This document shows, piece by piece, positions 26,166-39,351 of a stretch of 64,000 nt of DNA. Within the stretch, counting starts at the first letter, position 1, and the number at the start of each line of letters is the position of its first letter. Source of the stretch: an uncultured Schleiferiaceae bacterium (GTDB lineage: Bacteria > Bacteroidota > Bacteroidia > Flavobacteriales > Schleiferiaceae); NCBI GenBank assembly GCA_963974215.1, contig CAXBBL010000010.1, positions 1 to 64,000 on the forward strand. Reading direction: 5' to 3'. The notes beneath the pieces were generated by a model. The model was not told where the DNA came from. It saw only the letters and a program-made list of their open reading frames with translations, and searched no databases. Both the position numbers and the translations under genes were made by a program.

Positions 26166-28346
26166 ATGGAAATTTTTCAGCAAACCTACATGGTGATAAT
26201 CATTGTAGCCGTAGTTCTAATTTTCGGGATTATCGCCATGTTCTCCCGCTTCTATTACAAAACCTCCCAAGGCCAAGCTTTAGTTAAAACCGGTGTGGGT
26301 GGTATAAAAGTGTCCTTCAATGGCATGATGGTCATTCCTGTTCTTCACAAAGTGGAGATTATGGACATCTCTTTAAACACCATTACCATCGACCGCAAAG
26401 GCAAAGATGGCCTAGTGTGTAAAGACAACCTACGCGCCGATATAAACGTGGCCTTTTACGTACGCGTTAACGAAATGGTAGACGACGTAAAACGCGTTGC
26501 CCAATCCGTAGGCTGCAGCCGCGCCTCTTCTAAAGAAGCCTTGCGCTTACTTTTTGACGCTAAGTTTTCGGAAGCCTTAAAAACCGTAGGTAAAAAATTC
26601 GACTTCGTTGATTTATACAACCAGCGCGATGAGTTTAGAAGAGAGATTATTGACATTATTGGCACCGACCTAAATGGCTATGTCCTTGACGATGCCGCCA
26701 TCGACTTCCTAGAGCAAACTCCTCTAGAATCTTTGGATCCCAATAATATTTTAGATGCGGAAGGGATTAAAAAGATTACCGAAATCACTGCGAGAGAAGC
26801 GGTTAAAGCCAACTTCATTCAGCGTGATAAGGAAAAGGTAATTAAGCAACAAGATGTTGAAGCCCGCGAAGCAATCTTGGTTTTAGAAAGGCAATTAGCT
26901 GAAAGCGAAGAAAAACAGAAACGCGAAATAGCTAATGTTAAGGCGCGCGAAGAAGCGGAAATTGAAAAAGTAAACCAAGAGGAAAAACTCAAATCGGAAA
27001 GAGCTCGAATTGCTACCGAGGAAGAAATTGAGGTAAGCGAGCAAAATAAAGAGCGCCAAGTAATTGTGGCCGCCAAAAATAAAGAGCGCACCGAAGTTGT
27101 AGAAACGGAAAGAGTTGAAAAAGACCGTCAGCTAGAAGCTACAGAACGCGAACGCATTGTTACGCTTACGCAAATAGAAAAACAAAAAGCGATTGAAACC
27201 GAACAGAAAAACATTCAAGAAGTAATTCGTGAGCGGGTAGCCATTGAGAAAACTGTGGTAGATGAAGAAGAGCGCATCAAAGACACCCGTGCTTTCGCAG
27301 AAGCGGAAAGACTAAAAAGAGTGTCTATTACTAAAGCCGAAGAAGAAGCAGAAGCTTCACTGGTGCAAGAAATTAAAAAGGCGGAAGCCGCTAAATCAGC
27401 CGCTGAGTTTGGTGCCAAGCAGAAAATCATTGATGCCGATGCTGAACAACAAAGCTCGGTGCAAAAAGCAGAAGCCATTAAAGTTTTAGCCGAAGCCGAA
27501 GCCTCTCGTTTTGCCGCAGCAGGATTAGCCGAAGCCCGTGTATTAGAAGCCAAAGCCCAAGCGCGCGAGAAACAAGGGGAAGCAGAAGCTTCTGTTATTG
27601 AAGATCAAGCGATTGCTGAGGCACGCGGTATTGAAGCGAAGAGTTTAGCCCAAGCGGAAGCCGATTTAAGAATTGGTAAATCAGCCGCAGAAGTTAATCA
27701 AGCCACTGGCTTAGCCGAAGCGGAAGTAATTCGCAAGAAAGCGGAAGCGGAAAAAGAAAAAGGTCTAGCCGAAGCGCTAGTGAATTTGGAAAAAGCATCT
27801 GCGGAAGCGGAAGGAATTGACCGCAAAGCTAAAGCCATGAAAACCTTGAATGATGCTGGTAAAGATCACGAAGAGTTTAAACTACGTCTCGATAAAGACA
27901 AATCGGTAGAATTAGCTGGTATTCATATCCAGAAAGATATTGCCGATGCCCAAGCTCAAGTTTTATCAGAAGCATTACGCAGTGCTAAAATTGATATCGT
28001 TGGGGGTGAAAACGTCTTCTTCGACAAGATAGTAGGCGCCATCACTTCTGGAAAATCTATGGACCGTCGCATTGATAACTCGGTCGTATTTACCCAAGTG
28101 AAAGATCAGCTTCTTAATGACCCATCTGGCGCAAGCCTACTAGAAAAAGTACGGGGTATTGTAAAAGAATCGGGCATTAGTACCGAGGACCTTAGAAACC
28201 TTAGTGTGGCTTCTTTCCTTACCCGACTCATTAATAGTACCGACGATAGCAAGAAGCGCAGCGTGCTGGAACAAATGCTGAATTTTGCCAAACAAAACAA
28301 TTTGAGCAATAGCAGCGCTGACGATTTTGGCATCATCGAAGACTAA
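26166..28346 (+). CDS. Flotillin/SPFH (band-7, YqiK-like) protein with an extended Ala/Glu-rich coiled-coil
   Basis: 726 aa. N-terminal TM plus SPFH domain (VKTGVGGIKVSF...VIPVLHKVEIMDISLNTITI), then ~450 aa of AEA/EAE-rich repeats. Antisense ORFs 26456..26665, 26819..27091, 27215..27553 and 28106..28336 are repeat artefacts. Confidence 0.85.
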   Translation: MEIFQQTYMVIIIVAVVLIFGIIAMFSRFYYKTSQGQALVKTGVGGIKVSFNGMMVIPVLHKVEIMDISLNTITIDRKGKDGLVCKDNLRADINVAFYVRVNEMVDDVKRVAQSVGCSRASSKEALRLLFDAKFSEALKTVGKKFDFVDLYNQRDEFRREIIDIIGTDLNGYVLDDAAIDFLEQTPLESLDPNNILDAEGIKKITEITAREAVKANFIQRDKEKVIKQQDVEAREAILVLERQLAESEEKQKREIANVKAREEAEIEKVNQEEKLKSERARIATEEEIEVSEQNKERQVIVAAKNKERTEVVETERVEKDRQLEATERERIVTLTQIEKQKAIETEQKNIQEVIRERVAIEKTVVDEEERIKDTRAFAEAERLKRVSITKAEEEAEASLVQEIKKAEAAKSAAEFGAKQKIIDADAEQQSSVQKAEAIKVLAEAEASRFAAAGLAEARVLEAKAQAREKQGEAEASVIEDQAIAEARGIEAKSLAQAEADLRIGKSAAEVNQATGLAEAEVIRKKAEAEKEKGLAEALVNLEKASAEAEGIDRKAKAMKTLNDAGKDHEEFKLRLDKDKSVELAGIHIQKDIADAQAQVLSEALRSAKIDIVGGENVFFDKIVGAITSGKSMDRRIDNSVVFTQVKDQLLNDPSGASLLEKVRGIVKESGISTEDLRNLSVASFLTRLINSTDDSKKRSVLEQMLNFAKQNNLSNSSADDFGIIED

Positions 28347-28359
28347 ACAAAAGCCAACT

Positions 28360-28419: not shown

Positions 28420-31400
28420 ATGGCTCAAGAAAATCAAGAAGTAAATATTGAAATAGGTAGTTATGAAGTAATTCGTGACCGATTGCGTAATCATTCTGCC
28501 GATTTACAAGAGCGTTTACAACGCTTAAACGCGGCGCGCAAAGACGTTTTCGGAGCCACCGAAACCAAGCTGAAAGCAACGGAAAGAATTAGCACGGAAA
28601 ACAACTGCCTAGCCCGTGATATTATTCCTATCGGCGACAATTATTTTTGGTTCGGCTATAATGTACACATGGGCCTGAAAAGCGAAACCCATGTAAATGA
28701 TGTTTTTAGCACCTATCAGTTTCAGGAGGAAAGCCAAAACTTTAAGCTCTGTGAATCCACACTGCTTAATAATGAGCAGTTTTTACTAGACTTTGCCAAT
28801 CTATACCAATATTACCGCGAAACGGTTTTTAGCAAATTTGCCCGCATCGGCAATGCCATCTTTATGGTGTTTCGAGTAGGAAAAAGCGCTAATGATATTA
28901 AAACTTTCAAATGGTCGCTTATTGATGGTAAATATCAATACGCCGGCAACCGTAGTGACCATGAATTTAAATACCCTCAACAGCACGAATTCACTTGGGA
29001 AAAGGTCAGCCGCGATATGCATCGCAAAGGTTTACACCCTCACATCTCTATCAAGGATCGCGTTTTTATTGAAACTACCGGTGGCGATCTTACGCTAAAA
29101 ATTGAAGACAATACCGATACGGGTAAAGGCATTTACAGCGAACCCGTTGAAGACAAAGACCAAACGCTAGATGACGCGGAAATTTACTTTGCCATTATTG
29201 GCAACCTCATCGCTCTTAAAGTAAAACCCTACCAAGAAAAGGATTTTCGCTACATAGTATATAATGAGAAAATTCAAGCCTGTGCTCGCATGGACGCCTT
29301 GGAAGATTCTTGTGTTCTACTGCCCGATAACCAGGGGATCATTTTCGCCAAGGGTTATTATATCCAAACGGGGGAAGTGAAGCTCTTCGATATTCAGCTC
29401 AACAATATGCTTTTTGAGCGGAAAATAGCCTCTCAAAATGGCGAGGATTACCTCTATATCTTTTATCAAGCCGAAAGTGGTATTTATATTTTACTGAATT
29501 ATAACATTATAGATCAGAAGGTTGCCACGCCTATAATTTGCAATGGCTATACGCTATTTGAAAGCGGCGAACTTATTTTCTTTAAGGCCGAAGAGGAACA
29601 AAAAAGAGTACATCTCATCCAAATTTGGCAAACCCCCTTCTACTCGCCTAACCACGTGGTCGAAGCCCAAAGCGATTCCTACCTTTATAAAATTGGCAAT
29701 AAGGAAATTGTGCGTTTGATGAGCGAATGCAGTGAACTAATTAAGCTAATTGGCAAAGATGATCGCTACGCAAATTTATACACCGATTTAAGCAAGCAAA
29801 GTACTGGCATTATCGATGCCTACCATTGGATTAACCATGCCGAAGTAGAACAGATCTCCAAACCCATTGAAGCCATAAAAAGCACAGCCACTGCAGCCAT
29901 TGATGAATACGAGAAGGTTCTAAAAATTAAAGCCCATACAGCAGCGGAAAGTGCGAGCGTAATGGGAGAAGCCCATAAAGCCATTTCTAAAATAAAAAAT
30001 AGTCAGGCTAAAAATATTGACGAATACGTTAATCGCCTTGCCCTGCTGAGAGAGAATAAAGGGAAAGTAATTGCCTTAAAAGATCTGCGCTACAGCGACC
30101 TTACCGCCATTGAAGCCTTAGAAACTGAGCTAAGTGCGGTGAACGATCAATTATCGAAAGCCACTCTGAATTACCTTCTTCGCAAGGAAGCGCTAGAACC
30201 TTATGAATTAAAAACGGAAAAACTTAAGCAGGAGCTTGACCAAGCTAAAAAAGTAACAGAGCTTAATCGCTTAGCAGAAGACATTGTCCAAATTTCAGCT
30301 GAGCTCGACCTCTTGATTGAAATCGTAGGTAATTTAAAAATTGACGATGCCACTCAGTCGGTTAAAATCATTGACGCCATTTCTACGCTCTATGCGCAGT
30401 TTAACCGCATCAGCGCTCAGCTTAAAAACCGTAAAAAAGAATTACTTAGTCTCGAAGGCGAAGCAGAGTTTAAGTCACAAATAAAACTCATCAACCAAGG
30501 CCTTACCAATTACCTCAACTTGGCTGATTCAGCCGAAAAGTGCGATGAATACCTCAATAAGTTGATGGTACAGCTGGAGGAATTGGAAGCGAAATTCGCA
30601 GCCTTTGATGAGTTTATAGAAATCATTGCCGAAAAAAGGGAAGAGCTTTACAGTGCTTTTGACTCGAAGAAAGTTCAACTAAATGAAGCCTTAAACAAAC
30701 AAACGCTTAGTCTACAAAAATCGGGCGGTCGCATCATTAACGGCATCCAAAAAAGGCTAGCCAAGCTTAAGAACGAAGGCGAAATGCGCACCTTCTTTGC
30801 TAGCGATTTAATGATTGAAAAAGTACGTGGCATCGCCGAACAACTTTTATCATTAGGCGATTCGGTGAAAGCCGATGACCTTCTTAGTCAGTTAAAAACC
30901 AGCTACGAAGATGCCCTAAGACAAAGCAAAGACAAGCAGGAACTTTTTGTAAAGGGCGAAAATATCATTCAACTGGGCAAGCATCAGTTTAATGTAAACA
31001 CCCAAAGCATCGACCTCAGCATTGTTTATAAAGACGAGAATCTTTACTACCATATTAGTGGCACTAACTTTTTTGAAGCCTTGCAATCTGAGGCCGTTGA
31101 AGCAACCCGCAGCGTGTGGGACCAAAGCCTGAAAAGTGAAAATGCCCAAGTCTATCGCGCTGAGTATTTAGCTTATCACCTTTTTCTGGAAGCTCAACAT
31201 GGCCAGAACGAGGAAGAAACTAAAACTCTGGAAGAATTGCATCTTCTTAATGACAGCGATTTACAGGAATACGTGCAGCTTAAAATGGGCCGTAAATACG
31301 ATGAAGGTTATGTAAAAGGCGTGCACGATAAAGACGCTATGCTCATTTTAAAAGCCTTACTGAAACTTCATTTTAGCATCGGACTTTTACGTTATAGTAG

Positions 31401-33336
31401 CAATGCGAGATGCCTCGCCTACTTATTTTGGAAACGCGAAATATCGAGCGAACTGCGTGAAAAATGGGAAGAGAATATGCGTATTATTCGCAGCATTCTA
31501 AAAATATTTCCTCAAAGTAAAAGCTTCGTAAACAGTATTGCCGAGCTAAAAAATGATATTCAATCCCTTCCGCTTCAGCTAGATTGGGTAGATGACAAAG
31601 CACAAGAAGATGCCGCTCATTACCTATTCCATCTTTTAAGTTCAGAGCAAAAGCTAGCCTTTTCCCTCTCCGCTTGGGATTTAAGTGAGCAGTTTGAATT
31701 ACACCTAAAAAAGAACCGCTGGACCAAAGACTATGAATTGTCTTTGAAAAACGAAAAAGGCAATAAAGGAAAGAGCTTTCAAACGATCCTATCTTGGCTT
31801 AAAGCCTACCAAAACCAAGGGACAAGCAAGCCCTTTTCGGAAGAGGTAATGCGCGAGGCCAGCGTCCTTTTAATGGATAAAACGCTTGCGCTAGATGAGC
31901 ATCAAAAAGTGATACTCTCCGAAAAAATAGAAGGACTAGAAGGAGAGCACCCGTCTCTTGAAAAAGGACAAACAATGCTTCACTACCCGCATTTTATGGA
32001 GAAGCTGCATCGATTTAAAAGCACCACGGTGCAGGATTTTCTGCGCTTTCAAAAATTGAAAAAGGATTTACTAGCAGCCCAGAAAAAGGAATTACGCTTA
32101 CAAGAATTCAAACCCAAGGTGATGAGTTCTTTTGTTCGCAACCAATTATTGGATGAAGTTTATCTGCCTTTAATCGGCGATAACCTTGCCAAGCAAATGG
32201 GCGCTGCGGGTGCCAATAAACGTACCGATCTAATGGGAATGCTTTTACTCATTTCCCCCCCAGGTTATGGTAAGACTACCTTAATGGAATATATCGCCAA
32301 CCGTTTGGGATTGGTTTTTATGAAAATAAACGGTCCTGCTATTGGTCATGAAGTTACCGCTATTGACCCTTCGGTAGCGCCAAATTCTGCAGCACGTGAA
32401 GAACTGGAAAAACTAAACCTCGCATTTGAGATGGGCGATAATGTTATGATCTATATCGATGATATTCAGCATTGTAATCCCGCATTTTTGCAGAAATTTA
32501 TTTCACTCTGCGACGCGCAACGCAAAATAGAAGGCATCTACAAAGGTGTAAGCAAAACTTACGATTTCCGTGGCCGAAAAGTGGCAGTCGTAATGGCGGG
32601 GAACCCCTATACCGAAAGTGGCGATAAGTTTCAAATTCCCGATATGCTATCCAACCGAGCCGATATTTACAACCTCGGAGATATTATAGGCGGCAAGGCC
32701 GAAGCCTTTGAAAATAGCTATTTAGAAAACAGCCTGAGCAGTAATCCTAGCATTGCAAAACTGAAAGATCAAAACAGCAAAGACTTCAAAATATTGGTCC
32801 AAGCGATTGAAAGTGGCGACACCAGTCAGATAAGTTTAGAAGGAAAGCACAGTGGAGAAGAAATAAAAGAATACCTTCAGATTTTGCAGAAAATGCTAAG
32901 ATTGAGAGCGGTAATTTTAAAAGTAAACAAACAGTACATTCTTTCGGCTGGACAAGCGGAAGAGTATAGAACGGAACCTCCATTTAAACTGCAAGGCTCT
33001 TACCGCGATATGAATAAAATGGTAGAGAAACTGAGTCCGATAATGAATGAAGAAGAGTTAGAAACCTTAATCCTTTCGCATTATGAAAACGAATCGCAAA
33101 GTTTAAGCTCGGCGGCAGAATTCAATTTCTTAAAACTGAAGGAACTCTTGGATTTAATGAGCGAAGACGAGAAAAAAAGAAAAGAAGAAATCCTTGCAGT
33201 GTTTAGCCGACAACAAAAAATGAAGAGTTTCGGTGGTAATCAAATTGCACCGATTATAGAACAAATGGAGCGAGCAGGAATTGCCTTAGATGAATTAGTA
33301 AAGATTTTTCAAGGACCCACAAACCTGCCTAAATAA
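28420..33336 (+). CDS. Giant three-part protein: N-terminal globular region, ~600-aa coiled coil, C-terminal MoxR-type AAA+ ATPase
   Basis: 1638 aa. Walker A LLISPPGYGKTTLMEYIANRLG. Walker B, sensor and arginine region VMIYIDDIQHCNPAFLQKFISLCDAQ ... VAVVMAGNPYTESGDKFQIPDMLSNRAD. These match the MoxR/AAA_3-AAA_5 pattern (GPPGxGKT; DEINRAxPxxQSALLEAM; ATQNP...P.AxLDRF). Residues ~470-1100 are heptad-rich helical. Small nested ORFs such as 28801..29022 and 30916..31149 are spurious. Confidence 0.85.
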   Translation: MAQENQEVNIEIGSYEVIRDRLRNHSADLQERLQRLNAARKDVFGATETKLKATERISTENNCLARDIIPIGDNYFWFGYNVHMGLKSETHVNDVFSTYQFQEESQNFKLCESTLLNNEQFLLDFANLYQYYRETVFSKFARIGNAIFMVFRVGKSANDIKTFKWSLIDGKYQYAGNRSDHEFKYPQQHEFTWEKVSRDMHRKGLHPHISIKDRVFIETTGGDLTLKIEDNTDTGKGIYSEPVEDKDQTLDDAEIYFAIIGNLIALKVKPYQEKDFRYIVYNEKIQACARMDALEDSCVLLPDNQGIIFAKGYYIQTGEVKLFDIQLNNMLFERKIASQNGEDYLYIFYQAESGIYILLNYNIIDQKVATPIICNGYTLFESGELIFFKAEEEQKRVHLIQIWQTPFYSPNHVVEAQSDSYLYKIGNKEIVRLMSECSELIKLIGKDDRYANLYTDLSKQSTGIIDAYHWINHAEVEQISKPIEAIKSTATAAIDEYEKVLKIKAHTAAESASVMGEAHKAISKIKNSQAKNIDEYVNRLALLRENKGKVIALKDLRYSDLTAIEALETELSAVNDQLSKATLNYLLRKEALEPYELKTEKLKQELDQAKKVTELNRLAEDIVQISAELDLLIEIVGNLKIDDATQSVKIIDAISTLYAQFNRISAQLKNRKKELLSLEGEAEFKSQIKLINQGLTNYLNLADSAEKCDEYLNKLMVQLEELEAKFAAFDEFIEIIAEKREELYSAFDSKKVQLNEALNKQTLSLQKSGGRIINGIQKRLAKLKNEGEMRTFFASDLMIEKVRGIAEQLLSLGDSVKADDLLSQLKTSYEDALRQSKDKQELFVKGENIIQLGKHQFNVNTQSIDLSIVYKDENLYYHISGTNFFEALQSEAVEATRSVWDQSLKSENAQVYRAEYLAYHLFLEAQHGQNEEETKTLEELHLLNDSDLQEYVQLKMGRKYDEGYVKGVHDKDAMLILKALLKLHFSIGLLRYSSNARCLAYLFWKREISSELREKWEENMRIIRSILKIFPQSKSFVNSIAELKNDIQSLPLQLDWVDDKAQEDAAHYLFHLLSSEQKLAFSLSAWDLSEQFELHLKKNRWTKDYELSLKNEKGNKGKSFQTILSWLKAYQNQGTSKPFSEEVMREASVLLMDKTLALDEHQKVILSEKIEGLEGEHPSLEKGQTMLHYPHFMEKLHRFKSTTVQDFLRFQKLKKDLLAAQKKELRLQEFKPKVMSSFVRNQLLDEVYLPLIGDNLAKQMGAAGANKRTDLMGMLLLISPPGYGKTTLMEYIANRLGLVFMKINGPAIGHEVTAIDPSVAPNSAAREELEKLNLAFEMGDNVMIYIDDIQHCNPAFLQKFISLCDAQRKIEGIYKGVSKTYDFRGRKVAVVMAGNPYTESGDKFQIPDMLSNRADIYNLGDIIGGKAEAFENSYLENSLSSNPSIAKLKDQNSKDFKILVQAIESGDTSQISLEGKHSGEEIKEYLQILQKMLRLRAVILKVNKQYILSAGQAEEYRTEPPFKLQGSYRDMNKMVEKLSPIMNEEELETLILSHYENESQSLSSAAEFNFLKLKELLDLMSEDEKKRKEEILAVFSRQQKMKSFGGNQIAPIIEQMERAGIALDELVKIFQGPTNLPK

Positions 33337-33347
33337 AGAATATTTAG

Positions 33348-33926
33348 ATGGAGAATCAATTTTACCAAACTGAAGAATCGGTAGCAGAGTACATTGCAGC
33401 GGCCCAAGATATTAATGGGAGAAGCCTAATTGAAAAATTAAAAAAGCATCTCCCGCAAGGATCTTTGTTGCTTGAAATTGGCTCAGGCCCTGGTAGCGAT
33501 TTTCAAATTTTAAAAGAAGTGTACCGCTCGGTCGGCTCAGATTTTTCCGTTGAATTCATACGCCTGCTCAAGCTTCGCTTTCCCCAAGATGAATTTTTAA
33601 ACTTGAATGCGGTAAGTTTGGACACTACGCGTAAATTCCAAGGCCTTTACTCCAATAAGGTTCTGCATCATCTGCACGAAGAAGAGCTAAAAAAGTCCAT
33701 CTTGCGACAAGCAGATTTACTGGAATCAGACGGAATTATCTGCCATTCTTTTTGGAAAGGCGAAGGGAATGAGAACTTTAAGGGGCTGCTTGTGAGCTAC
33801 TATAGTGCTGAAAATCTAACGCTTCTTTTTCAAGATCACTTTAAAATCATTACGCTAGAGGAATATGAAGAATTTGAAACTGGAGATTCACTTTTACTAA
33901 TTGCTAAGAAAAAAGACCAGTCCTGA
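33348..33926 (+). CDS. Class I SAM-dependent methyltransferase (small)
   Basis: 192 aa. Motif I LLEIGSGPGSDF. Motif post-I/II pattern with acidic residues downstream. Confidence 0.7.
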   Translation: MENQFYQTEESVAEYIAAAQDINGRSLIEKLKKHLPQGSLLLEIGSGPGSDFQILKEVYRSVGSDFSVEFIRLLKLRFPQDEFLNLNAVSLDTTRKFQGLYSNKVLHHLHEEELKKSILRQADLLESDGIICHSFWKGEGNENFKGLLVSYYSAENLTLLFQDHFKIITLEEYEEFETGDSLLLIAKKKDQS

Positions 33927-33974
33927 TCGCCTGGCTAACTAAATTACTTGAAAACTTAAAAACGAAAACATAAA

Positions 33975-34523
33975 ATGAGTCTATTTAAAAATCTTTTTGG
34001 TAAAAAAGAAGAAGAACCAAAACCCTTCAGTCGCACCGTTCTAGACCTAAGCATGGGTTATATTTTCGAATATGATTTACGCACTTGGGAAGTTACTGGC
34101 GAATACGAATACGACTGGGGCGATGAAGAATTTAGCAAAGAATACAAGGTTTCCGATGGTAAGGACAGCTTTTACCTTTCGGTAGATGAGGACGACGAAA
34201 TAGAATTGCTCTGGTGTGAAAAAGTACCTATGCGCAAACTAGGAGCGGAAATCGCCAAAAATATAAGCGATGGCTCAGCCCCACCCGAAACCATAATTTA
34301 CAAGGGTAAAAGCTATTTCCTAGATGAAGAATCGCCGGGCTATTTTAACGACATGACCAAAAGTAAAAACGACGATTGGCAAGAATTCATCGCTTGGGAC
34401 TACTATAACGAAGATGAAACTTTAAATTTGACCATTGAACAATGGGGCGAACGTTCCTTCGAGGCATCTTGGGGGAAGGTAATCTCCGAATTCGAAATTT
34501 CTGATATTCTTCCAAGAAAATAA
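33975..34523 (+). CDS. DUF4178-like protein
   Basis: 182 aa, soluble, acidic and Trp/Tyr-rich (YIFEYDLRTWEVTGEYEYDWGDEEF...FYLSVDEDDEIELLW). Fits my recollection of the DUF4178 family, which is often clustered with DUF350 and spermidine-synthase-like genes. Assigned from memory without an HMM. Confidence 0.45.
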   Translation: MSLFKNLFGKKEEEPKPFSRTVLDLSMGYIFEYDLRTWEVTGEYEYDWGDEEFSKEYKVSDGKDSFYLSVDEDDEIELLWCEKVPMRKLGAEIAKNISDGSAPPETIIYKGKSYFLDEESPGYFNDMTKSKNDDWQEFIAWDYYNEDETLNLTIEQWGERSFEASWGKVISEFEISDILPRK

Positions 34524-34528
34524 GAACC

Positions 34529-35296
34529 ATGCGCATCTATCATTATCTCAGTCTTTTAGCAAGCTTATTTTTAATTAGCGCTTGCGGACCTAATACCCCG
34601 GTTTACGAGAAAAACCCCATCGACGATTTAGTAAAAAAAATGACTGAAGTGCCGAACTACAGCATTATGCTTTACGACATGAACTACGATGAGAGTAGCG
34701 AAAAGTATTTGCATCAGTATCGCATCTTAAAAGAAGACAGCTTCAACGACACCTTAGTTTCAGAAACTACCGATTGGCTGCAAGTGAGCGACAGCTATTT
34801 CAATAGCAATATCGACAATATGGGCATGGCGCTTATCACTAAAGTAGATGGGAAAGTGGAAAAGAAAGTAGCACCTCCTGGTTATAATAATTATGTTGGC
34901 AACGAGAAGTACGGAAAATGGAACCAAGGTTCGGATGGCAATAGCTTTTGGGAATTCTACGGCAAATACGCCATGCTGCGTTCCGTTTTAGGTTACGGTA
35001 TGTCCCCTATTTACCGTGGCGGCTGGAACGATTATCGTCGCAATTATTATCCCTCGGGCAGAACCTATTACGGTAATAACTCCAACGGTGGCACTCGCTT
35101 TGGCACTAATGGCAGCCACACCAGCAATCGGAGCAGTCGCTCTACTTGGAACAGCAAACCCACTACCTTCAAACAAAATGTGCGCAGCAAAGTACAACGC
35201 AGTAGCAGCCGTACAAGCAGCAGAAACTCACGTTCCTCTTCACGCTATCGCAGCAGTTCTAGCAGTCGAGGACGCGGATTTGGTGGTGGAAAATAA
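34529..35296 (+). CDS. Lipoprotein with C-terminal Arg/Ser/Gly-rich low-complexity tail
   Basis: 255 aa. Lipobox LISACG. The last ~90 aa are NRSSRSTWNSK...RSSSRTSSRNSRSSSRYRSSSSSRGRGFGGGK. Overlapping ORFs 34988..35197(-) and 35016..35300(+) are codon-repeat artefacts. Confidence 0.7.
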   Translation: MRIYHYLSLLASLFLISACGPNTPVYEKNPIDDLVKKMTEVPNYSIMLYDMNYDESSEKYLHQYRILKEDSFNDTLVSETTDWLQVSDSYFNSNIDNMGMALITKVDGKVEKKVAPPGYNNYVGNEKYGKWNQGSDGNSFWEFYGKYAMLRSVLGYGMSPIYRGGWNDYRRNYYPSGRTYYGNNSNGGTRFGTNGSHTSNRSSRSTWNSKPTTFKQNVRSKVQRSSSRTSSRNSRSSSRYRSSSSSRGRGFGGGK

Positions 35297-35316
35297 TTAA
35301 GCAAAACAATAGCAAT

Positions 35317-36198
35317 ATGACAACCGAACTTGTAGCAAACGAATGGCTTAACTCCTTTTTGCTTTTTCTCATTTACCTTAGTAGCTCCCTTATTTTACTC
35401 TTTATTGGAAAGTGGGCCTTTAAGCTGCGCAAGAGTAAAATTAACTTTAGCCATGAACTGGTTGAAAAAGATAACCTCGCTTTCAGCTTTGCCTATGTAG
35501 GTTATTTCGCTGGACTAATCCTAGCGGTAGGTAGCGCCATTTACGGCGAGTCAAATGGACTGATAGTTGACTTGGTGGATATGGGAATTTTTGGCTTGCT
35601 CGCCATTATCCTTTTGAACCTTTCCTCTACCATCATGGATAAAATTACCCTTTCTAAATTTTCGATTTGGAAGGAAATTACCGAAGACCGCAATGCCGGG
35701 ATGGGCATTATCGAAGGCGCCAATTATCTGGGCTCGGGATTAATCATTTTCGGCGCTATTACTGGTGAAAGTGGCAACTTGCTTTTTGGCATTTATACCG
35801 CCCTACTCTACTGGGTTTTGGGCCAAGTTCTAATTTTAATTAGCACCGCCCTTTACAACAAATTAGTACCCTACGATATTCACGAGGAAATTGAAAAAGA
35901 CAATGTGGCCGCGGGCATTGCCTATGCGGGACTAATTATCGCAATGGGTAATTTAATTCGCAATGGCCTGATGGGTAATTTCGATAACTGGGTGGATACG
36001 CTAATGGAAGTGGGCTACGAAGCAGGTATTGGTATTATCATTTTACCGCTTATTCGCACTTTGGTAGATAAGATTTTATTGCCGGGACAGAATTTAAGTG
36101 ATGAAATCGCGAATCAAGAAACCCCAAATTCGGGCGCAGCACTAATAGAGGCCTTAGGCTATATTGGCGGATCTATGCTTATAATTTGGTGTATCTAA
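35317..36198 (+). CDS. Membrane protein with two DUF350-like repeats (YjfL-like)
   Basis: 293 aa. Two repeated modules of DN(L/V)A...(A)Y(V/A)G...(I/L) in TM helices, DNLAFSFAYVGYFAGLILAVG and DNVAAGIAYAGLIIAMG. E. coli YjfL is the single-DUF350 counterpart. Confidence 0.5.
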   Translation: MTTELVANEWLNSFLLFLIYLSSSLILLFIGKWAFKLRKSKINFSHELVEKDNLAFSFAYVGYFAGLILAVGSAIYGESNGLIVDLVDMGIFGLLAIILLNLSSTIMDKITLSKFSIWKEITEDRNAGMGIIEGANYLGSGLIIFGAITGESGNLLFGIYTALLYWVLGQVLILISTALYNKLVPYDIHEEIEKDNVAAGIAYAGLIIAMGNLIRNGLMGNFDNWVDTLMEVGYEAGIGIIILPLIRTLVDKILLPGQNLSDEIANQETPNSGAALIEALGYIGGSMLIIWCI

Positions 36199-36199
36199 A

Positions 36200-37744
36200 T
36201 TGAAACTTTCACGCTCTCCCGTCTTAAAACTTGCGCTCTTTGCCACAGGACTTTCTGGCATTGTAGCGGAATACATCCTGTCTACCCTCGCCACCTATTT
36301 TATTGGTGATTCGGCCACACAATGGTCGCTCATCGTTTCGGTAATGCTCTTCTCCATGGGATTGGGTAGCAGGTTTAGCAAGTACTTTAACGAAAACCTT
36401 TTAGTTAAATTCATCGCCATTGAATTTAGCCTCAGTATTCTGGTTTCATTCGCCAGCCTCTTCGCTTATACCGCGGCAGGTTACACCGAATACGTGGGCT
36501 TTATTATTTACGGACTGAGCATTCTCATTGGGATTTTAATCGGTCTCGAAATCCCCTTGGTAATCCGCCTCAACGAAGAGTTCGAATCGCTGCGCATCAA
36601 TGTAGCCAGCGTTATGGAAAAAGATTATTTAGGTTCGCTCGTGGGCGGATTGTTTTTCGCCTTTGTCGGTTTACCGATCTTAGGTTTAACCTACACCCCT
36701 TTTATACTGGGAATGGTAAACTTTGTAGTAGCCATCCTCTTGTTTTTAGTGGTTAAAGACGCTTTAAAAATTAAGGCTAAAAGCCTGATAAGTTTGGCTG
36801 CCGTTATCGTCTTCGCAATGATTAGCACCGGTGCCTATTATGCGAGCCCCATTATCCTACAAGGCGAACAAGCCCGTTACAAAGACAAAGTGGTTTTTGA
36901 GAAGCAGAGCAAATACCAACGCATTGTAATTACCCAGTGGAAAAACGACTATTGGCTTTACATTAATGGAAACCAACAACTTAGCACCATTGACGAAGAC
37001 AAATATCACGAACCATTAATCCATCCAGCGCTAAATATTATTCAAGAGCGTAAGCATATTTTAGTGCTCGGTGGCGGTGATGGATGTGCGGTAAGAGAGA
37101 TTCTAAAATACCCTGACGTAGAGAAAATCACCTTGGTAGATTTAGACTCGGTAATGACCAATATGGGAAAATACAACCCCATTTTACACGAACTAAACGA
37201 AGGTGCTTTTCACCATCCTAAATTAGAAATCATCAATACCGATGCATTCAATTTTATGGAAAAGGGCGAGAACTATTACGATGCGATAATTGTCGATTTA
37301 CCCGATCCTCGCTCGGTCGAATTAAACCGTTTGTACACCTTGCAATTTTACCAGCTTTGTCACTTAAAACTAAAAAAACACGGGGTTTTATTAACCCAAG
37401 CCGGCAGTCCCTATTATGCGACCAAAGCCTTCTTATGCATCGACAAAACCATGGCCGCAGCGGGGTTCACCACTCAAAAAATGCATAACCAAGTAATAAC
37501 ACTAGGCGAATGGGGCTGGGTGATGGGAGTAAAATCTTGGCCCGAAGAAAAAGATTTAAAAGGTACTTTAGAGCAAATGGAGTTTACGATTCCCACGCGT
37601 TGGTTAAATCAAGATGCGATGTTAATGATGTGTAATTTCGGCAAGAACATTTACGAAGCCACGCACGATAGCATTGCGATAAACCAAATTCAAAACCCTG
37701 TTTTGTACCGTTATTACCTGAAAGGCAATTGGGATTTATATTAA
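36200..37744 (+). CDS. Membrane-anchored spermidine-synthase-like aminopropyltransferase
   Basis: 514 aa. Roughly 7 N-terminal TM helices. The C-terminal domain carries the spermidine synthase signature HILVLGGGDGCAVREILKYPDVEKITLVDLD...AIIVDLPDP. Confidence 0.85.
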   Translation: MKLSRSPVLKLALFATGLSGIVAEYILSTLATYFIGDSATQWSLIVSVMLFSMGLGSRFSKYFNENLLVKFIAIEFSLSILVSFASLFAYTAAGYTEYVGFIIYGLSILIGILIGLEIPLVIRLNEEFESLRINVASVMEKDYLGSLVGGLFFAFVGLPILGLTYTPFILGMVNFVVAILLFLVVKDALKIKAKSLISLAAVIVFAMISTGAYYASPIILQGEQARYKDKVVFEKQSKYQRIVITQWKNDYWLYINGNQQLSTIDEDKYHEPLIHPALNIIQERKHILVLGGGDGCAVREILKYPDVEKITLVDLDSVMTNMGKYNPILHELNEGAFHHPKLEIINTDAFNFMEKGENYYDAIIVDLPDPRSVELNRLYTLQFYQLCHLKLKKHGVLLTQAGSPYYATKAFLCIDKTMAAAGFTTQKMHNQVITLGEWGWVMGVKSWPEEKDLKGTLEQMEFTIPTRWLNQDAMLMMCNFGKNIYEATHDSIAINQIQNPVLYRYYLKGNWDLY

Positions 37745-37750
37745 AGGAAA

Positions 37751-38071
37751 ATGGTAAAAACTAGCATTTACAATTTACGCTTTTGGCTTTTGGAAACGAA
37801 TGCCAGTCTATTAAAAGAGCATTTGCATAAATTCTTGAGCGAGGCGGGCTATGGCATTGTAGGCTTTAGCGAGCATCAGTTTCAACCGCAAGGTTATACT
37901 GCCATTTGGTTGCTTAGCGAAAGTCATTTAGCCCTGCACACCTATCCCGAAGATGAACGGTCCTACATAGAGTTGAGCGGCTGCTCCAAAGATATGAACG
38001 AGCGCTTTAAATCGCTTTGCCATCAACAATGGCCCGATAAAATTAAGCAGGAAGAATTGGCCATTTTGTAA
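37751..38071 (+). CDS. speH: S-adenosylmethionine decarboxylase proenzyme, class 1 (pyruvoyl-dependent, small form)
   Basis: 106 aa. HQFQPQGYTAIWLLSESHLALHTYPE aligns with B. subtilis SpeD [26 protein letters not shown]. The E-S self-cleavage site is conserved. Confidence 0.85.
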   Translation: MVKTSIYNLRFWLLETNASLLKEHLHKFLSEAGYGIVGFSEHQFQPQGYTAIWLLSESHLALHTYPEDERSYIELSGCSKDMNERFKSLCHQQWPDKIKQEELAIL

Positions 38072-38151
38072 AGGTCCTATTTCTTGACAGTCAAGCATTT
38101 ATGAAGTATTAAAAAGCTATATTCGCACATCAAATTTCGATAGAACACCCT

Positions 38152-39138
38152 ATGTTGCGAATTATTTTTGCTCTGCTAATTAGCCTAAACCTTCAGGCCC
38201 AAACCGAAAACTATCAGATTATCATCCACGGTGGAGCGGGTAATGGCCTTAAAGCAGAAAACTATTCTGAGGCACAAATAGCCGCTTTTCATCATTCTTT
38301 ACGCCAAGCTATTGCTATTGGCGATAGTGCCTTGCAAAAGGGCACAGCCACAATTGAAGTAGTAAGCCTCGTTATCCAACAGCTCGAAAACGACAGTCTT
38401 TTTAATGCCGGCAAAGGAGCGGTTTTAACTTATGAAGGCCGCGCTTCTTTAGACGCTTCTATTATGGATGGCGAAAACGGTAATGCGGGAGCCGTTGCCG
38501 GACTTAGCTGCATCAAAAATCCAATTACCGCTGCCTTAGCGGTGCTAAACAACTCGCCACATGTTTTACTCAGTGGCGCTGGCGCAGATACCTTCAGTCT
38601 GCAAAATGGGCTTACTCAAGTAGATCCCTCCTATTTCATCACCCAGCGTATGAAAGGCATCCACGAAAGTATAAAGGGTCATCAAGGCGCCTTGGATAGT
38701 ATCCGCGACTTTAAAATGGGCACGGTGGGTTGCGTAGTAAGAGATCGTCAAGGCAATATCGCAGCAGGTACTTCTACTGGTGGTATGATGAATAAGCGAT
38801 ATGGTCGCGTTGGCGATTCACCTATCATTGGCGCTGGCACTTTTGCCTCCAATGCTACGGTGGGAATTAGTTGCACCGGGCACGGCGAGTACTTCATCCG
38901 TCATGCAGTAGCTTATCAAATTAGCGCGCGTTACGAATTTCAAGGCCTTAGCAGTCAGAAAGCCGCCGACACGGTACTACATGAGGTTCTAAAACCTGGC
39001 GCGGGTGACGGCGGAGTAATTGGCATCGATAAGGACGGGAATTTCATTATATCCTTTAATACAGCTGGAATGCTACGGGCTTTCAAACAAGAAGGAGAAG
39101 CTATTCAAAGCTATATTTTCGGGGAAGGAGAAAAATAA
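38152..39138 (+). CDS. Isoaspartyl peptidase / L-asparaginase (Ntn-hydrolase, plant-type asparaginase family)
   Basis: 328 aa. Signal peptide. Autoproteolytic GTVGCVVRD motif, where Thr is the Ntn nucleophile. Confidence 0.8.
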   Translation: MLRIIFALLISLNLQAQTENYQIIIHGGAGNGLKAENYSEAQIAAFHHSLRQAIAIGDSALQKGTATIEVVSLVIQQLENDSLFNAGKGAVLTYEGRASLDASIMDGENGNAGAVAGLSCIKNPITAALAVLNNSPHVLLSGAGADTFSLQNGLTQVDPSYFITQRMKGIHESIKGHQGALDSIRDFKMGTVGCVVRDRQGNIAAGTSTGGMMNKRYGRVGDSPIIGAGTFASNATVGISCTGHGEYFIRHAVAYQISARYEFQGLSSQKAADTVLHEVLKPGAGDGGVIGIDKDGNFIISFNTAGMLRAFKQEGEAIQSYIFGEGEK

Positions 39139-39238
39139 TTCCCTTAAAAACAATGTCTTAGAAATTTATTTTATTTTTCTTGGTTACTGCTATAGCAAAA
39201 TCGAAAAACCCTCTTATATTTGCACTCCCAAAACAACG

Positions 39239-39313: not shown

Positions 39314-39320
39314 CAAAAAA

Positions 39321-39351
39321 ATCCGGAGATGAAAATCTACCGGATTTTTTT
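39321..39351 (+). terminator. Rho-independent terminator after tRNA-Val
   Basis: atccgg...ccggat hairpin (39321-39345) followed by T7. Confidence 0.75.

What the first reader, a model, noticed from the sequence alone, without database searches (positions are those of the whole stretch)
33975..38071. Dedicated membrane-anchored aminopropyltransferase + AdoMetDC + DUF350/DUF4178 sub-module
The spermidine-synthase catalytic domain (GGGDGCAVRE...IVDLPDP) is fused to a ~7-TM N-terminal domain. It sits next to a class-1 AdoMet decarboxylase (ESHLALHTYPE), which supplies the decarboxylated AdoMet donor. A double-DUF350 membrane protein, a DUF4178-like protein and a lipoprotein precede them.

The parallel in E. 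coli is yjfL (DUF350) with yjfC (glutathionylspermidine-synthetase-like), next to pspA-like yjfJ. The parallel suggests a conserved link between DUF350 membrane proteins and polyamine modification of an unknown, possibly membrane-bound, acceptor. The DUF4178 and DUF350 calls rest on remembered family signatures and were not run against an HMM.
Basis: partly seen in the sequence, partly recalled or inferred. Interest (0 to 1): 0.75.

Follow-up and report, generated by a model that had tools for sequence, protein, structure and literature searches.

The report
PspA-linked membrane aminopropyltransferase operon
This is a real but already published bacterial gene cluster in which a membrane-anchored spermidine-synthase-like enzyme and its donor-making partner sit inside an envelope-stress (PspA) operon; what the enzyme modifies is unknown, and the neighbouring lipoprotein's always-conserved final lysine is a new, testable candidate.

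Summary
Window 33975-38071 encodes DUF4178, a lipoprotein, a double DUF350 membrane protein, a multi-TM aminopropyltransferase (NF002956, above cut-off) and a class 1b AdoMet decarboxylase with its processing Ser, His and Cys intact. DUF4247 was not hit.

The module is not stand-alone. It is the 3' half of a tightly spaced 11-gene + strand cluster starting at 24349: CesT/Tir, PspA, YqiJ-like, Band-7 coiled coil, DUF3686-AAA+ and a methyltransferase, then the five genes.

The architecture is published. Ravi et al. 2024 (PMC11237479) describe it. By their citation and my recollection, Li et al. 2019 (not held) also noted the DUF350 and YjfC-type link. PMC12803844 cites that work for such fusions being uninvolved in spermidine or spermine synthesis. 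The locus is therefore a new member of a known kind.

New here:
- The lipoprotein family ends in an acid-free Ser/Arg-rich tail with a near-invariant C-terminal Gly-Lys.
- Fusion proteins place DUF4178 in the cytoplasm and this tail outside.
- Gly-Lys forms are followed by DUF350 plus TM-SpeE (4 of 4). Arg-ended variants are not (0 of 6).

Leading hypothesis, about 0.25-0.3: the terminal Lys is the aminopropyl acceptor. Enzyme topology is unresolved.

The parts
22692..23384 (-). PLD-like (HKD) hydrolase. Context gene, divergent from the operon.
   Evidence: Pfam PLDc_2, E 1.7e-30. Ravi et al. note a PLD hydrolase in some related operons.
23394..24158 (-). XRE-type HTH protein with a weak S24-peptidase-like C-terminus. 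Candidate regulator, transcribed divergently.
   Evidence: Pfam HTH_3, E 1.8e-11; Peptidase_S24, E 0.023. The same divergent HTH-then-CesT arrangement occurs in L011, L012, L015, L019 and L042.
24349..24744 (+). CesT/Tir-like chaperone. First gene of the operon.
   Evidence: Pfam CesT_Tir_1, E 4e-54.
24756..25484 (+). PspA/IM30 family protein.
   Evidence: Pfam PspA_IM30, E 3.8e-38, 131.7 bits against a cut-off of 33.9.
25495..26139 (+). YqiJ/YuaF-like small membrane protein. The family assignment is weak.
   Evidence: Pfam YqiJ_N, E 0.0043, 17.7 bits, below the cut-off of 23. Its position matches Ravi et al.'s group 1.
26166..28346 (+). Membrane-anchored SPFH/Band-7 protein with a long coiled coil (flotillin-like).
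   Evidence: The N-terminal 245 aa hit Pfam Band_7, E 1.7e-11, 44.9 bits against a cut-off of 23.6. The full-length protein gives no hit.
28420..33336 (+). 1638-aa protein with DUF3686, DUF7902 and an AAA+ ATPase domain.
   Evidence: Pfam DUF3686, E 3.6e-185; DUF7902, E 4.9e-25; AAA, E 4.6e-07.
33348..33926 (+). Class I SAM-dependent methyltransferase. A lineage-specific insertion.
   Evidence: Pfam Methyltransf_11/12/25. Among the 80 species loci it is present only in L005, plus L001/L002, which are the window's own contigs.
33975..34523 (+). DUF4178 protein, predicted cytoplasmic.
   Evidence: Pfam DUF4178, E 4.6e-27. It has no signal peptide. In natural fusions it lies N-terminal to a TM segment preceded by basic residues.
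34529..35296 (+). Lipoprotein with a beta-rich domain and a disordered, acid-free Ser/Arg-rich tail ending ...RGRGFGGGK-COOH. Candidate aminopropyl acceptor.
   Evidence: Lipobox LISAC. No Pfam hit. AF2: residues 30-145 at pLDDT 75-88, tail disordered. C-terminal GK in 119 of 120 close homologues and 121 of 147 representatives at 50% identity.
35317..36198 (+). Membrane protein with two DUF350 (YjfL family) repeats.
   Evidence: Pfam DUF350, two stretches, E 3e-52. It sits immediately upstream of the enzyme in most of the 66 loci that have it.
36200..37744 (+). Polytopic membrane domain (residues 1-215) fused to an aminopropyltransferase domain (about 228-450) with a conserved C-terminal extension.
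   Evidence: NF002956, 561.9 bits against a cut-off of 472. Pfam Spermine_synth. Foldseek TMt 0.74-0.79 to solved SpeE structures. GGGDG, D366 and D369 are invariant and align with E. coli D158 and D161.
37751..38071 (+). Class 1b S-adenosylmethionine decarboxylase proenzyme (pyruvoyl enzyme), the dcAdoMet supplier.
   Evidence: Pfam AdoMet_dc, E 2.1e-14. Aligns to T. maritima AdoMetDC 1tlu, with the Ser matching the position mutated in 1tmi. E57, S58, H63 and C78 are at least 95% conserved in 36 linked orthologues.
38152..39138 (+). Secreted isoaspartyl peptidase / L-asparaginase. A lineage-specific downstream neighbour, probably not part of the system.
   Evidence: Pfam Asparaginase_2, E 1.9e-98. 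Found downstream only in Schleiferiaceae/Croceimicrobium-type loci.

Best explanation
The region is the downstream half of a PspA-type envelope-stress operon. It belongs to the published class in which a CesT/Tir-PspA dyad is joined to DUF4178, a lipoprotein with a low-complexity tail, an 8-TM DUF350 protein and a multi-TM spermidine-synthase-like enzyme. In this lineage the operon also carries AdoMetDC, and a YqiJ / Band-7 / AAA+ module is inserted between PspA and DUF4178.

Proposed mechanism:
1. SpeD self-processes at Glu57-Ser58 and makes decarboxylated AdoMet in the cytoplasm.
2. The membrane-anchored enzyme, whose dcAdoMet-binding and catalytic residues are intact, transfers the aminopropyl group to an acceptor at the membrane or envelope rather than to bulk putrescine.
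3. The cationic product changes envelope properties. The PspA / flotillin / AAA+ machinery encoded in the same operon monitors or repairs those properties.

The best specific acceptor candidate found here is the epsilon-amine of the invariant C-terminal lysine of the co-encoded lipoprotein tail. A Lys side chain plus an aminopropyl group gives a spermidine-like end group.

Status of each step:
- Shown by computation: domain identities, conserved catalytic residues, synteny across phyla, conservation of the Gly-Lys terminus, the fusion proteins, and co-occurrence of the Gly-Lys terminus with DUF350 plus TM-SpeE.
- Taken from the literature: bacterial membrane-APT fusions are not involved in spermidine or spermine synthesis, and these genes are linked to PspA.
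- Inferred: the identity of the acceptor, the side of the membrane on which catalysis occurs, and the physiological role.
For: Domain calls.

Synteny: CesT-PspA-DUF4178-lipoprotein-DUF350-SpeE(-SpeD) recurs in Bacteroidota. The same genes recur in a split, divergent arrangement in Gemmatimonadota and Latescibacterota. A minimal DUF4178::lipoprotein fusion, DUF350 and SpeE operon occurs in L086.

Catalytic residues: GGGDG, D314, D348, D366 and D369 are invariant in 46 homologues and align to canonical SpeE. SpeD keeps E57, S58, H63 and C78.

Literature: the operon class is described in PMC11237479. PMC12803844, citing Li et al. [quoted passage not shown]

Acceptor candidate:
- All 57 lipoprotein orthologues next to SpeE end in GK.
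- 119 of 120 close homologues and 121 of 147 representatives end in GK.
- The tail is 34% Ser and 21% Arg, with essentially no Asp or Glu.
- L065 keeps only a TM segment and a short ...SRGYGK tail fused to DUF4178.
- Lipoprotein-anchored look-ups of GK forms have DUF350 plus SpeE directly downstream in 4 of 4 cases. Arg-ended forms have it in 0 of 6. My own Fisher exact calculation from these counts gives p about 0.005.
- The Arg-ended forms are scattered among GK forms in a tree built without the tail.

Parallel system: E. coli YjfC and YgiC are peptide-spermidine ligases whose physiological substrate is unknown (PMC11762307). Each is encoded next to a DUF1190 lipoprotein with a conserved Ser/Gly/Arg tail ending in GG.
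Against: Topology is the main problem. The fusions place the GK tail outside the cytoplasmic membrane, whereas dcAdoMet is made inside.
- The positive-inside count favours a 7-TM, N-in, C-out enzyme. Mean K+R per loop runs 1.6 / 0 / 2.4 / 0 / 3.1 / 0 / 2.1. That would put the catalytic domain on the same side as the tail.
- The AF2 model draws hydrophobic segments 5 and 6 as one 54-residue helix. That would give six crossings and a cytoplasmic catalytic domain.
- To my knowledge, neither a periplasmic dcAdoMet-dependent enzyme nor a dcAdoMet exporter has been described.

The E. coli enzymes are soluble and ATP-dependent, hence cytoplasmic, so that analogy has the same topological gap.

The lipoprotein family shows no detectable homology to DUF1190 (hhalign probability 5.8%).

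Eleven SpeE-anchored loci, mostly Cytophagales and Microscillaceae, have no partner genes within 10 kb.

The sample behind the GK/Arg correlation is small, and its phylogenetic independence rests on a rough NJ tree.

SpeD is below the TIGR03330 equivalog cut-off (53.8 against 75.65). Some SpeD homologues are known to be arginine or ornithine decarboxylases (PMC10407285).
Confidence: 0.6

Rival explanations
1. The enzyme is an ordinary, merely membrane-tethered spermidine synthase (or another polyamine synthase). With SpeD it makes the cell's spermidine from putrescine. The neighbouring genes are co-regulated only because polyamines stabilise membranes.
For: All canonical dcAdoMet-binding and catalytic residues are invariant, including the second Asp that anchors the distal amine of putrescine in canonical enzymes (D369, equivalent to E. 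coli D161). NCBIfam names the family 'polyamine aminopropyltransferase' as an equivalog. No other speE or speD lies in the 64-kb window.
Against: PMC12803844, citing Li et al. 2019, says the bacterial membrane-APT fusions were experimentally shown to be uninvolved in Spd/Spm synthesis. The enzyme is lost or kept together with DUF350 and with the Gly-Lys tail. It sits in a minimal three-gene operon without SpeD in L086. SpeD is adjacent in only 35 of 77 loci.
Confidence: 0.08
2. The acceptor is a membrane lipid head-group amine or a small amine. The cytoplasmic catalytic domain aminopropylates it, and the 7-TM domain and/or DUF350 then flips or exports the product. The lipoprotein tail and DUF4178 bind or sense the product rather than being modified.
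For: The membrane domain carries invariant intramembrane acidic residues (E24, E75, E117) and D142 at the start of hydrophobic segment 5, which suits binding a cationic substrate. Ravi et al. call it transporter-like. This reading keeps catalysis where dcAdoMet is made. It agrees with the six-crossing reading of the AF2 model.
Against: No specific acceptor is indicated by any result here. The reading does not by itself explain why the last residue of the lipoprotein is Lys in every locus with the enzyme and Arg in loci without it. The positive-inside count favours an outside catalytic domain.
Confidence: 0.27
3. The terminal lysine is a peptidoglycan-attachment residue, like the C-terminal Lys of Braun's lipoprotein, or simply part of a cationic membrane-binding tail. 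It has no chemical relation to the aminopropyltransferase.
For: A lipoprotein with an invariant C-terminal Lys is the hallmark of Lpp-type covalent attachment (my own knowledge, not tested here). The tail is strongly cationic and disordered.
Against: This does not predict the observed coupling between a Lys terminus and the presence of DUF350 plus TM-SpeE, nor between an Arg terminus and their absence. The family spans phyla with very different envelopes.
Confidence: 0.07

Closest known systems
PspA operon 'second major group' of Ravi et al. 2024 (mSystems; PMC11237479), prototype Shewanella oneidensis SO_3765/SO_3766 region
   Same: The same components are present: CesT/Tir, PspA, DUF4178, a lipoprotein with a low-complexity tail ('LipoSIG+Ctha_1186+Low-comp'), a YjfL/DUF350 multi-TM protein, and TM(s) plus Spermine_synth (compared).
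   Different: The gene order differs. Here it is CesT-PspA first and the enzyme last. No RHH gene was seen. An AdoMetDC gene follows the enzyme. The whole 'first group' module (YqiJ-like, Band-7/flotillin-like, AAA+) plus a methyltransferase is inserted between PspA and DUF4178. Close relatives L011, L012 and L015 lack that insertion.
AdoMetDC plus membrane-protein/SpdSyn-like fusion clusters of Li, Kurihara, Kim, Liang and Michael 2019 (Biochem J 476:2579)
   Same: A class 1b AdoMetDC is encoded with a membrane-domain/aminopropyltransferase fusion and DUF350. The proposed role lies outside polyamine biosynthesis. I know this paper only through citations and my own recollection of its abstract.
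   Different: The paper itself could not be read here. I therefore could not verify whether the tested proteins belong to the same NF002956 subfamily or to the 'fused MFS/spermidine synthase' family NF037959. The window protein scores only 27.5 bits against NF037959, below its cut-off of 40.
E. coli yjfIJKLMC and ygiBC (YjfC and YgiC are peptide-spermidine ligases)
   Same: The layout runs in parallel: a CesT-like protein (YjfI), PspA (YjfJ), a soluble DUF protein (YjfK), DUF350 (YjfL), a lipoprotein with a conserved Ser/Gly/Arg tail (YjfM, YgiB), and a polyamine-attaching enzyme. The physiological substrate is unknown in both systems.
   Different: The chemistry differs: ATP-grasp amide ligation of spermidine to a carboxylate, against dcAdoMet-dependent alkylation of an amine. 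The E. coli enzyme is soluble. DUF2491 and DUF4178 show no detectable similarity, nor do DUF1190 and the window lipoprotein family. The E. coli tails end in Gly-Gly, not Gly-Lys.
Canonical cytosolic SpeE/SpeD (e.g. E. coli b0121/b0120; T. maritima 1INL and 1TLU)
   Same: The catalytic fold and residues match.
   Different: The enzyme has a 215-residue polytopic N-terminal domain and a conserved C-terminal extension ending NPVLYRYYLKGNWDLY. Its genomic context is envelope stress rather than polyamine metabolism. SpeD is 106 aa, class 1b, and below the TIGR03330 cut-off.
Lysine-linked polyamine modifications in eukaryotes (silaffin long-chain polyamines; deoxyhypusine on eIF5A). Chemical precedents, from my own knowledge.
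   Same: A lysine epsilon-amine in a protein carries aminoalkyl units. In silaffins this happens in Ser-rich sequences.
   Different: These belong to a different domain of life and use different enzymes. I know of no bacterial example. No paper in the held library mentions protein lysine aminopropylation under the terms tried.

Membership tests
Polyamine aminopropyltransferase, membrane form (NCBIfam NF002956 / PRK03612) | Full-length HMM match above the curated cut-off | tested here: met
   561.9 bits against a cut-off of 472. Residues 6-511 match model positions 19-518 of 522.
Polyamine aminopropyltransferase, membrane form (NCBIfam NF002956 / PRK03612) | dcAdoMet-binding GGGDG motif and the catalytic D-x-x-D-P motif | tested here: met
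   G291-G295, D366 and D369 are invariant in 46 homologues. They align with E. coli SpeE D158 and D161.
Polyamine aminopropyltransferase, membrane form (NCBIfam NF002956 / PRK03612) | Aminopropyl transfer activity and the identity of the acceptor | not testable with these tools
   Needs enzymology. The literature says related fusions do not make Spd or Spm.
Fused MFS/spermidine synthase (NCBIfam NF037959) | HMM match above the cut-off | tested here: not met
   27.5 bits against a cut-off of 40.
Class 1b S-adenosylmethionine decarboxylase | Pfam AdoMet_dc above the gathering score | tested here: met
   54.2 bits against 25.
Class 1b S-adenosylmethionine decarboxylase | Equivalog-level match (TIGR03330) | tested here: not met
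   53.8 bits against a cut-off of 75.65.
Class 1b S-adenosylmethionine decarboxylase | Glu-Ser self-processing site, with the downstream His and Cys | tested here: met
   By my numbering from the T. maritima alignment, S58, H63 and C78 correspond to S63, H68 and C83. S58 sits at the position that differs between 1tlu and 1tmi. All are at least 95% conserved in 36 linked orthologues.
Class 1b S-adenosylmethionine decarboxylase | Substrate is AdoMet rather than arginine or ornithine | not testable with these tools
   Neofunctionalised SpeD homologues exist (PMC10407285). Adjacency to an aminopropyltransferase argues for AdoMet.
DUF4178 (PF13785) | HMM match above the gathering score | tested here: met
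   95.3 bits against 25.
DUF350 / YjfL (PF03994) | HMM match above the gathering score; two repeats | tested here: met
   176.6 bits, two stretches.
DUF4247 (PF14042), for ORF 34529 | HMM match | tested here: not met
   No Pfam family at E<=1. No precomputed Pfam domain in the 120 listed homologues.
DUF1190 (YjfM/YgiB), for ORF 34529 | Profile-profile homology | tested here: not met
   hhalign probability 5.8%. The resemblance is limited to tail composition and an RGG[FY]G-like motif.
PspA-CesT/Tir spermine-synthase operon (Ravi et al., group 2) | CesT/Tir-PspA dyad in the same operon | tested here: met
   CesT_Tir_1, E 4e-54, and PspA_IM30, E 3.8e-38, on the same strand. Intergenic gaps along the cluster are 1-73 nt.
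PspA-CesT/Tir spermine-synthase operon (Ravi et al., group 2) | DUF4178, a lipoprotein with a low-complexity tail, DUF350 and a multi-TM Spermine_synth protein | tested here: met
   Identity with the authors' 'Ctha_1186' domain could not be tested, because no model is available.
PspA-CesT/Tir spermine-synthase operon (Ravi et al., group 2) | Terminal RHH transcription factor (present 'in some cases') | not tested
   None of the cluster's genes hit an RHH family in the Pfam scans. No dedicated search was made.
PspA band-7 / AAA+ operon (Ravi et al., group 1) | TM plus band-7 plus coiled coil protein; AAA+ ATPase; YqiJ/YuaF-like TM protein | tested here: inconclusive
   Band_7, E 1.7e-11, on the N-terminal 245 aa and AAA with DUF3686 are met. 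YqiJ_N scores only 17.7 bits against a cut-off of 23.

The most novel reading that the evidence does not exclude
The aminopropyltransferase domain faces the periplasm (7 TM, N-in, C-out). It receives dcAdoMet through its own acidic-residue-lined membrane domain and/or through DUF350. It then aminopropylates, once or repeatedly, the epsilon-amine of the invariant C-terminal lysine of the co-encoded lipoprotein tail.

This would be a bacterial protein 'polyamine tag', a post-translational modification not yet described. It would also identify the unknown acceptor of a family with thousands of database members. By analogy, it would nominate the DUF1190 lipoprotein tails as the natural substrates of the E. 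coli peptide-spermidine ligases YjfC and YgiC.

Lineages that lost the enzyme would have replaced the modifiable Lys by a genetically encoded oligo-Arg terminus.
Probability: 0.22. Interest if true: 0.82.

Novelty: new member of a known kind. Interest (0 to 1): 0.42.

Why it matters
The membrane aminopropyltransferase family is very large.

Published work cited here says such fusions are not involved in spermidine or spermine synthesis. No acceptor is named in anything I could read. Later reviews still list the physiological substrate of the parallel E. coli enzymes as unknown.

The locus itself adds little, because the architecture is published. The comparative result does add something. The invariant Gly-Lys terminus, its retention in the minimal fusion and its replacement by Arg wherever the enzyme is missing turn an open question into one mass-spectrometry experiment.

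If the hypothesis is correct, it links PspA-type envelope-stress systems to a covalent polycationic modification of an envelope protein.

Tried and rejected
1. DUF4247 for the lipoprotein: no Pfam hit at E<=1.
2. Homology of the lipoprotein to E. coli DUF1190: hhalign probability 5.8%.
3. Homology of DUF4178 to E. coli YjfK (DUF2491): BLASTP E 0.38, and no cross-hits in Pfam.
4. A hidden TM helix in the lipoprotein (residues about 140-160) that would put the tail in the cytoplasm. Hydropathy reaches only 0.42, and AF2 models part of the segment (139-143) as a beta strand inside the folded domain.
6. A solved structure for DUF4178 or for the Band-7 protein: no significant sequence match.
7. A second speE or speD in the window: none.
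8. Reading Li et al. 2019 and Pederick et al. 2023 directly: neither is held. They are known here only through citing papers and, for Li et al. 2019, my recollection of the abstract.
9. Promoter and terminator scan of 23300-39900: no more sites than in shuffled sequence, so uninformative for operon limits.
10. Fold search against the AlphaFold database: that library was not available.
11. Membrane topology could not be settled.

Full report
**1. What is at the coordinates**

The window carries five consecutive + strand ORFs at 33975-34523, 34529-35296, 35317-36198, 36200-37744 and 37751-38071.

Pfam assigns them as follows:
- ORF 33975: DUF4178, E 4.6e-27.
- ORF 34529: nothing.
- ORF 35317: two DUF350 repeats, E 3e-52.
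- ORF 36200: Spermine_synth on residues 266-446, E 7.7e-39.
- ORF 37751: AdoMet_dc, E 2.1e-14.

NCBIfam places the 514-aa enzyme over its full length in NF002956/PRK03612 'polyamine aminopropyltransferase' (561.9 bits, cut-off 472). It does not place it in the 'fused MFS/spermidine synthase' family (27.5 bits, cut-off 40). SpeD scores below the TIGR03330 equivalog cut-off (53.8 against 75.65).

The second ORF has a lipobox (LISAC) and no Pfam match even at E<=1. The suggested DUF4247 identity is therefore not supported.

**2. The enzymes look active**

The catalytic domain aligns with solved aminopropyltransferases (best E 1e-29) and with E. coli SpeE.
- GGGDG (291-295), D314, D348, D366 and D369 are invariant in 46 homologues of 60-100% identity.
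- D366 and D369 correspond to E. coli D158 and D161.
- An AF2 model (mean pLDDT 85.7) superposes on SpeE structures with TM-scores of 0.74-0.79, normalised to the target.

SpeD aligns to the T. maritima class 1b enzyme. Its Ser58 falls at the position that differs between wild type (1tlu) and the 1tmi variant. His63 and Cys78 are in register. E57, S58, H63 and C78 are at least 95% conserved in 36 SpeD orthologues that sit next to the enzyme.

**3. The real extent of the unit**

The five genes are the 3' half of an eleven-gene + strand cluster with intergenic gaps of 1-73 nt. The upstream half is:
- CesT_Tir_1 at 24349, E 4e-54.
- PspA_IM30 at 24756, E 3.8e-38.
- A weak YqiJ-like membrane protein at 25495.
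- A membrane-anchored SPFH/Band-7 coiled-coil protein at 26166. Band_7 scores E 1.7e-11 when only the N-terminus is scanned.
- A 1638-aa DUF3686-DUF7902-AAA+ protein at 28420.
- A SAM methyltransferase at 33348.

An XRE-type HTH gene and a PLD-like gene lie divergently upstream.

**4. Source and relatives**

The identical enzyme is encoded on TARA Oceans metagenome scaffolds. The nearest genomes are Schleiferiaceae, Croceimicrobium and Owenweeksia MAGs (Flavobacteriales).

I mapped the window's proteins onto 80 species-level loci.
- The order CesT-PspA-DUF4178-lipoprotein-DUF350-SpeE-SpeD occurs in many Bacteroidota, including Marinifilum, Crocinitomicaceae and Salinivirgaceae.
- In Gemmatimonadota and Latescibacterota, lipoprotein-DUF350-SpeE is followed by DUF4178-PspA-CesT encoded on the opposite strand.
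- In the window's own lineage, the YqiJ / Band-7 / AAA+ block is inserted between PspA and DUF4178. Close relatives L011, L012 and L015 lack the insertion.
- The methyltransferase occurs only in L005 and in the window's own contigs.
- SpeD is adjacent in 35 of 77 loci, DUF350 in 66 and the lipoprotein in 57.
- Eleven loci, mostly Cytophagales and Microscillaceae, have the enzyme alone.

**5. It is already described**

Ravi et al. 2024 (PMC11237479; preprint 2020) describe a 'second major group' of PspA operons. [quoted passage not shown]

They also describe a 'first group' with band-7/flotillin, a novel AAA+ ATPase, YqiJ/YuaF and sometimes a PLD hydrolase. A 'third group' is the E. coli-type operon with a glutathionylspermidine-synthetase-like ATP-grasp ligase, DUF350, DUF1190 and DUF2491.

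They cite Li et al. 2019 (Biochem J 476:2579). I could not read that paper. As I recall its abstract, it names DUF350 and the YjfC-homologue link. [quoted passage not shown]

The window combines groups 1 and 2 plus SpeD in one operon.

**6. The E. coli parallel, tested**

RefSeq annotates yjfI (DUF2170), yjfJ (PspA family), yjfK (DUF2491), yjfL (DUF350), yjfM (DUF1190) and yjfC. YjfC is now named 'peptide--spermidine ligase'. The pair ygiB (DUF1190) and ygiC has the same annotation.

The activity comes from Pederick et al. 2023, which is not held. A 2025 review states that the physiological substrate remains unknown (PMC11762307).

The layouts are parallel, but homology could not be shown:
- DUF4178 against YjfK: none.
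- The lipoprotein family against DUF1190: hhalign probability 5.8%.

**7. New observation: the lipoprotein tail**

- All 57 lipoprotein orthologues found beside the enzyme end in a Ser/Arg-rich stretch followed by ...GGFGK...FGGGK or ...GSYGK.
- Among 120 homologues found by searching with the lipoprotein itself, 119 end in Gly-Lys. Their last 45 residues are 34% Ser, 21% Arg and 10% Gly. One hundred of them have no Asp or Glu there.
- An exhaustive profile search finds 908 family representatives. Of the 147 newly listed among the best 150, 121 end in Gly-Lys. Most exceptions look like fragments or misread ends.
- AF2 models residues 30-145 as a beta-rich domain (pLDDT 75-88) and the tail as disordered.
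- E. coli YjfM orthologues likewise keep a conserved tail, SRGG[YF]GRSSSARG[HS]WGG. YgiB ends ...TRGGFGES...SRSMGG.

**8. Fusion proteins fix the tail's side of the membrane**

Seven family representatives are DUF4178-TM-lipoprotein-domain proteins that end in the Gly-Lys tail (P0378, P0399, P0400, P0420, P0428, P0431, P0437). In P0378, whose sequence was inspected, basic residues lie on the DUF4178 side of the TM segment.

Pseudotenacibaculum (L065) has a shorter version: DUF4178, one TM segment and a roughly 40-residue tail ending SRGYGK. It has no separate lipoprotein gene.

Three things follow. DUF4178 is cytoplasmic. The tail is extracytoplasmic. The tail is the part of the lipoprotein retained in this minimal version.

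**9. Tail type tracks the enzyme**

I looked up loci starting from the lipoprotein, not from the enzyme.
- Four independent Gly-Lys proteins (P0378, P0162, P0216, P0474) are each followed directly by DUF350 and the TM-aminopropyltransferase.
- Six proteins whose tails end in oligo-Arg, such as ...SSGGRRR, are followed by unrelated or oppositely oriented genes (P0363, P0368, P0387, P0411, P0415, P0419). In five of the six, DUF4178 lies immediately upstream, and in two of them PspA as well.
- A seventh Arg-ended case sits at a contig end and is uninformative.

A 4/0 against 0/6 table gives p about 0.005 by my own Fisher exact calculation.

In an NJ tree built after removing the last 70 residues, the Arg-ended proteins do not form a clade. 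For eight of ten, the nearest neighbour is a Gly-Lys protein. This suggests several independent switches, although the tree is rough.

The pattern is what one would expect if the Lys needs the enzyme to acquire extra positive charge, and if an encoded Arg run can substitute when the enzyme is lost.

**10. The obstacle: topology**

dcAdoMet is made in the cytoplasm, and SpeD has no signal peptide. The tail is outside.

For the enzyme, mean K+R counts per extramembrane segment across 46 homologues are:

| Segment | Mean K+R |
|---|---|
| N-terminus | 1.57 |
| Loop 1-2 | 0 |
| Loop 2-3 | 2.39 |
| Loop 3-4 | 0 |
| Loop 4-5 | 3.07 |
| Turn 164-167 | 0 |
| Loop 6-7 | 2.09 |

This is the signature of a 7-TM, N-in, C-out protein, which would put the catalytic domain outside.

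The AF2 model instead draws residues 135-188 as a single helix. That implies six crossings and a cytoplasmic catalytic domain. However, 43 consecutive hydrophobic residues containing two Pro and five Gly are unusual for a single span.

The membrane domain has invariant acidic residues inside its hydrophobic segments (E24, E75, E117), plus D142 at the start of segment 5. These are compatible with handling a cation such as dcAdoMet or an amine.

I could not resolve the question. It decides between the lysine model and a model with a lipid or small-molecule acceptor.

**11. Verdict**

- The finding is real, and its interpretation is essentially right.
- The architecture is published, so the locus is a new member of a known kind. 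Here it is a composite of two published operon types.
- Ordinary spermidine synthesis is unlikely on published evidence and on the co-inheritance pattern.
I put this at roughly 0.25-0.3. It can be tested directly by mass spectrometry (+57.058 Da) and by topology mapping.
- No second speE or speD exists in the window. The rest of the genome could not be examined.

Noticed in passing
window 39831-41556 (- strand): A rhodopsin gene (Bac_rhodopsin, E 9.9e-43) lies next to a beta-carotene 15,15'-dioxygenase (BCD/blh, E 1.7e-40). This is a light-driven pump with its retinal supplier, typical of marine Flavobacteriia.
   Followed up: no
window 39239-39314 (+): tRNA-Val (anticodon TAC) lies between the asparaginase-like gene and the blh/rhodopsin pair. 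Long spurious ORFs overlap it in the mechanical ORF list.
   Followed up: no
window 33348-33926 (+): A class I SAM methyltransferase is inserted between the AAA+ gene and DUF4178. Among the species loci it occurs only in L005, and it is absent from L003 and L004 at 96-98% enzyme identity. Whether it acts on the same acceptor, for example by N-methylating aminopropyl units, is unknown.
   Followed up: partly
loci L090, L091, L092, L094, L095, L097: Lipoprotein-family members whose tails end in oligo-Arg (...GGRRR) instead of Gly-Lys. In five of the six the gene follows DUF4178 directly, and in two PspA lies just upstream as well. None has DUF350 or the aminopropyltransferase downstream.
   Followed up: yes
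L065 8314-9048 (Pseudotenacibaculum haliotis); proteins P0378, P0399, P0400, P0420, P0428, P0431, P0437: Natural fusions of DUF4178 through one TM segment to the lipoprotein domain and/or just its Gly-Lys tail.
   Followed up: yes
L100 and L101 (protein P0474): A third architecture: an N-terminal TM segment, about 250 residues with no Pfam match, then the lipoprotein domain with the Gly-Lys tail. Here a K+ channel gene with an RCK domain follows the enzyme. Ravi et al. list such a channel only for the ATP-grasp type operon.
   Followed up: partly
L098 9387-9959 (Salinivirga cyanobacteriivorans): A rhomboid-family protease gene lies directly downstream of the aminopropyltransferase. Any relation to processing of the lipoprotein or its tail was not examined.
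   Followed up: no
L033, L035, L037, L044, L046, L058, L059, L061, L062, L063, L076: 'Orphan' TM-aminopropyltransferase genes, mostly from Cytophagales and Microscillaceae, with no DUF350, lipoprotein, DUF4178, PspA or SpeD within 10 kb. Partners may lie elsewhere in the genome, or these enzymes may work differently.
   Followed up: partly
window 36602-36763 (enzyme residues 135-188): AF2 predicts a single 54-residue helix across two hydrophobic segments joined by the invariant T164-x-T166-P167. This conflicts with the hairpin implied by the charge distribution.
   Followed up: partly
window 26166-28346 (+): The full-length 726-aa protein gives no Pfam hit at all. Its first 245 residues alone hit Band_7 at E 1.7e-11. 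The long Glu/Ala/Lys-rich coiled coil probably suppresses the full-length match.
   Followed up: yes
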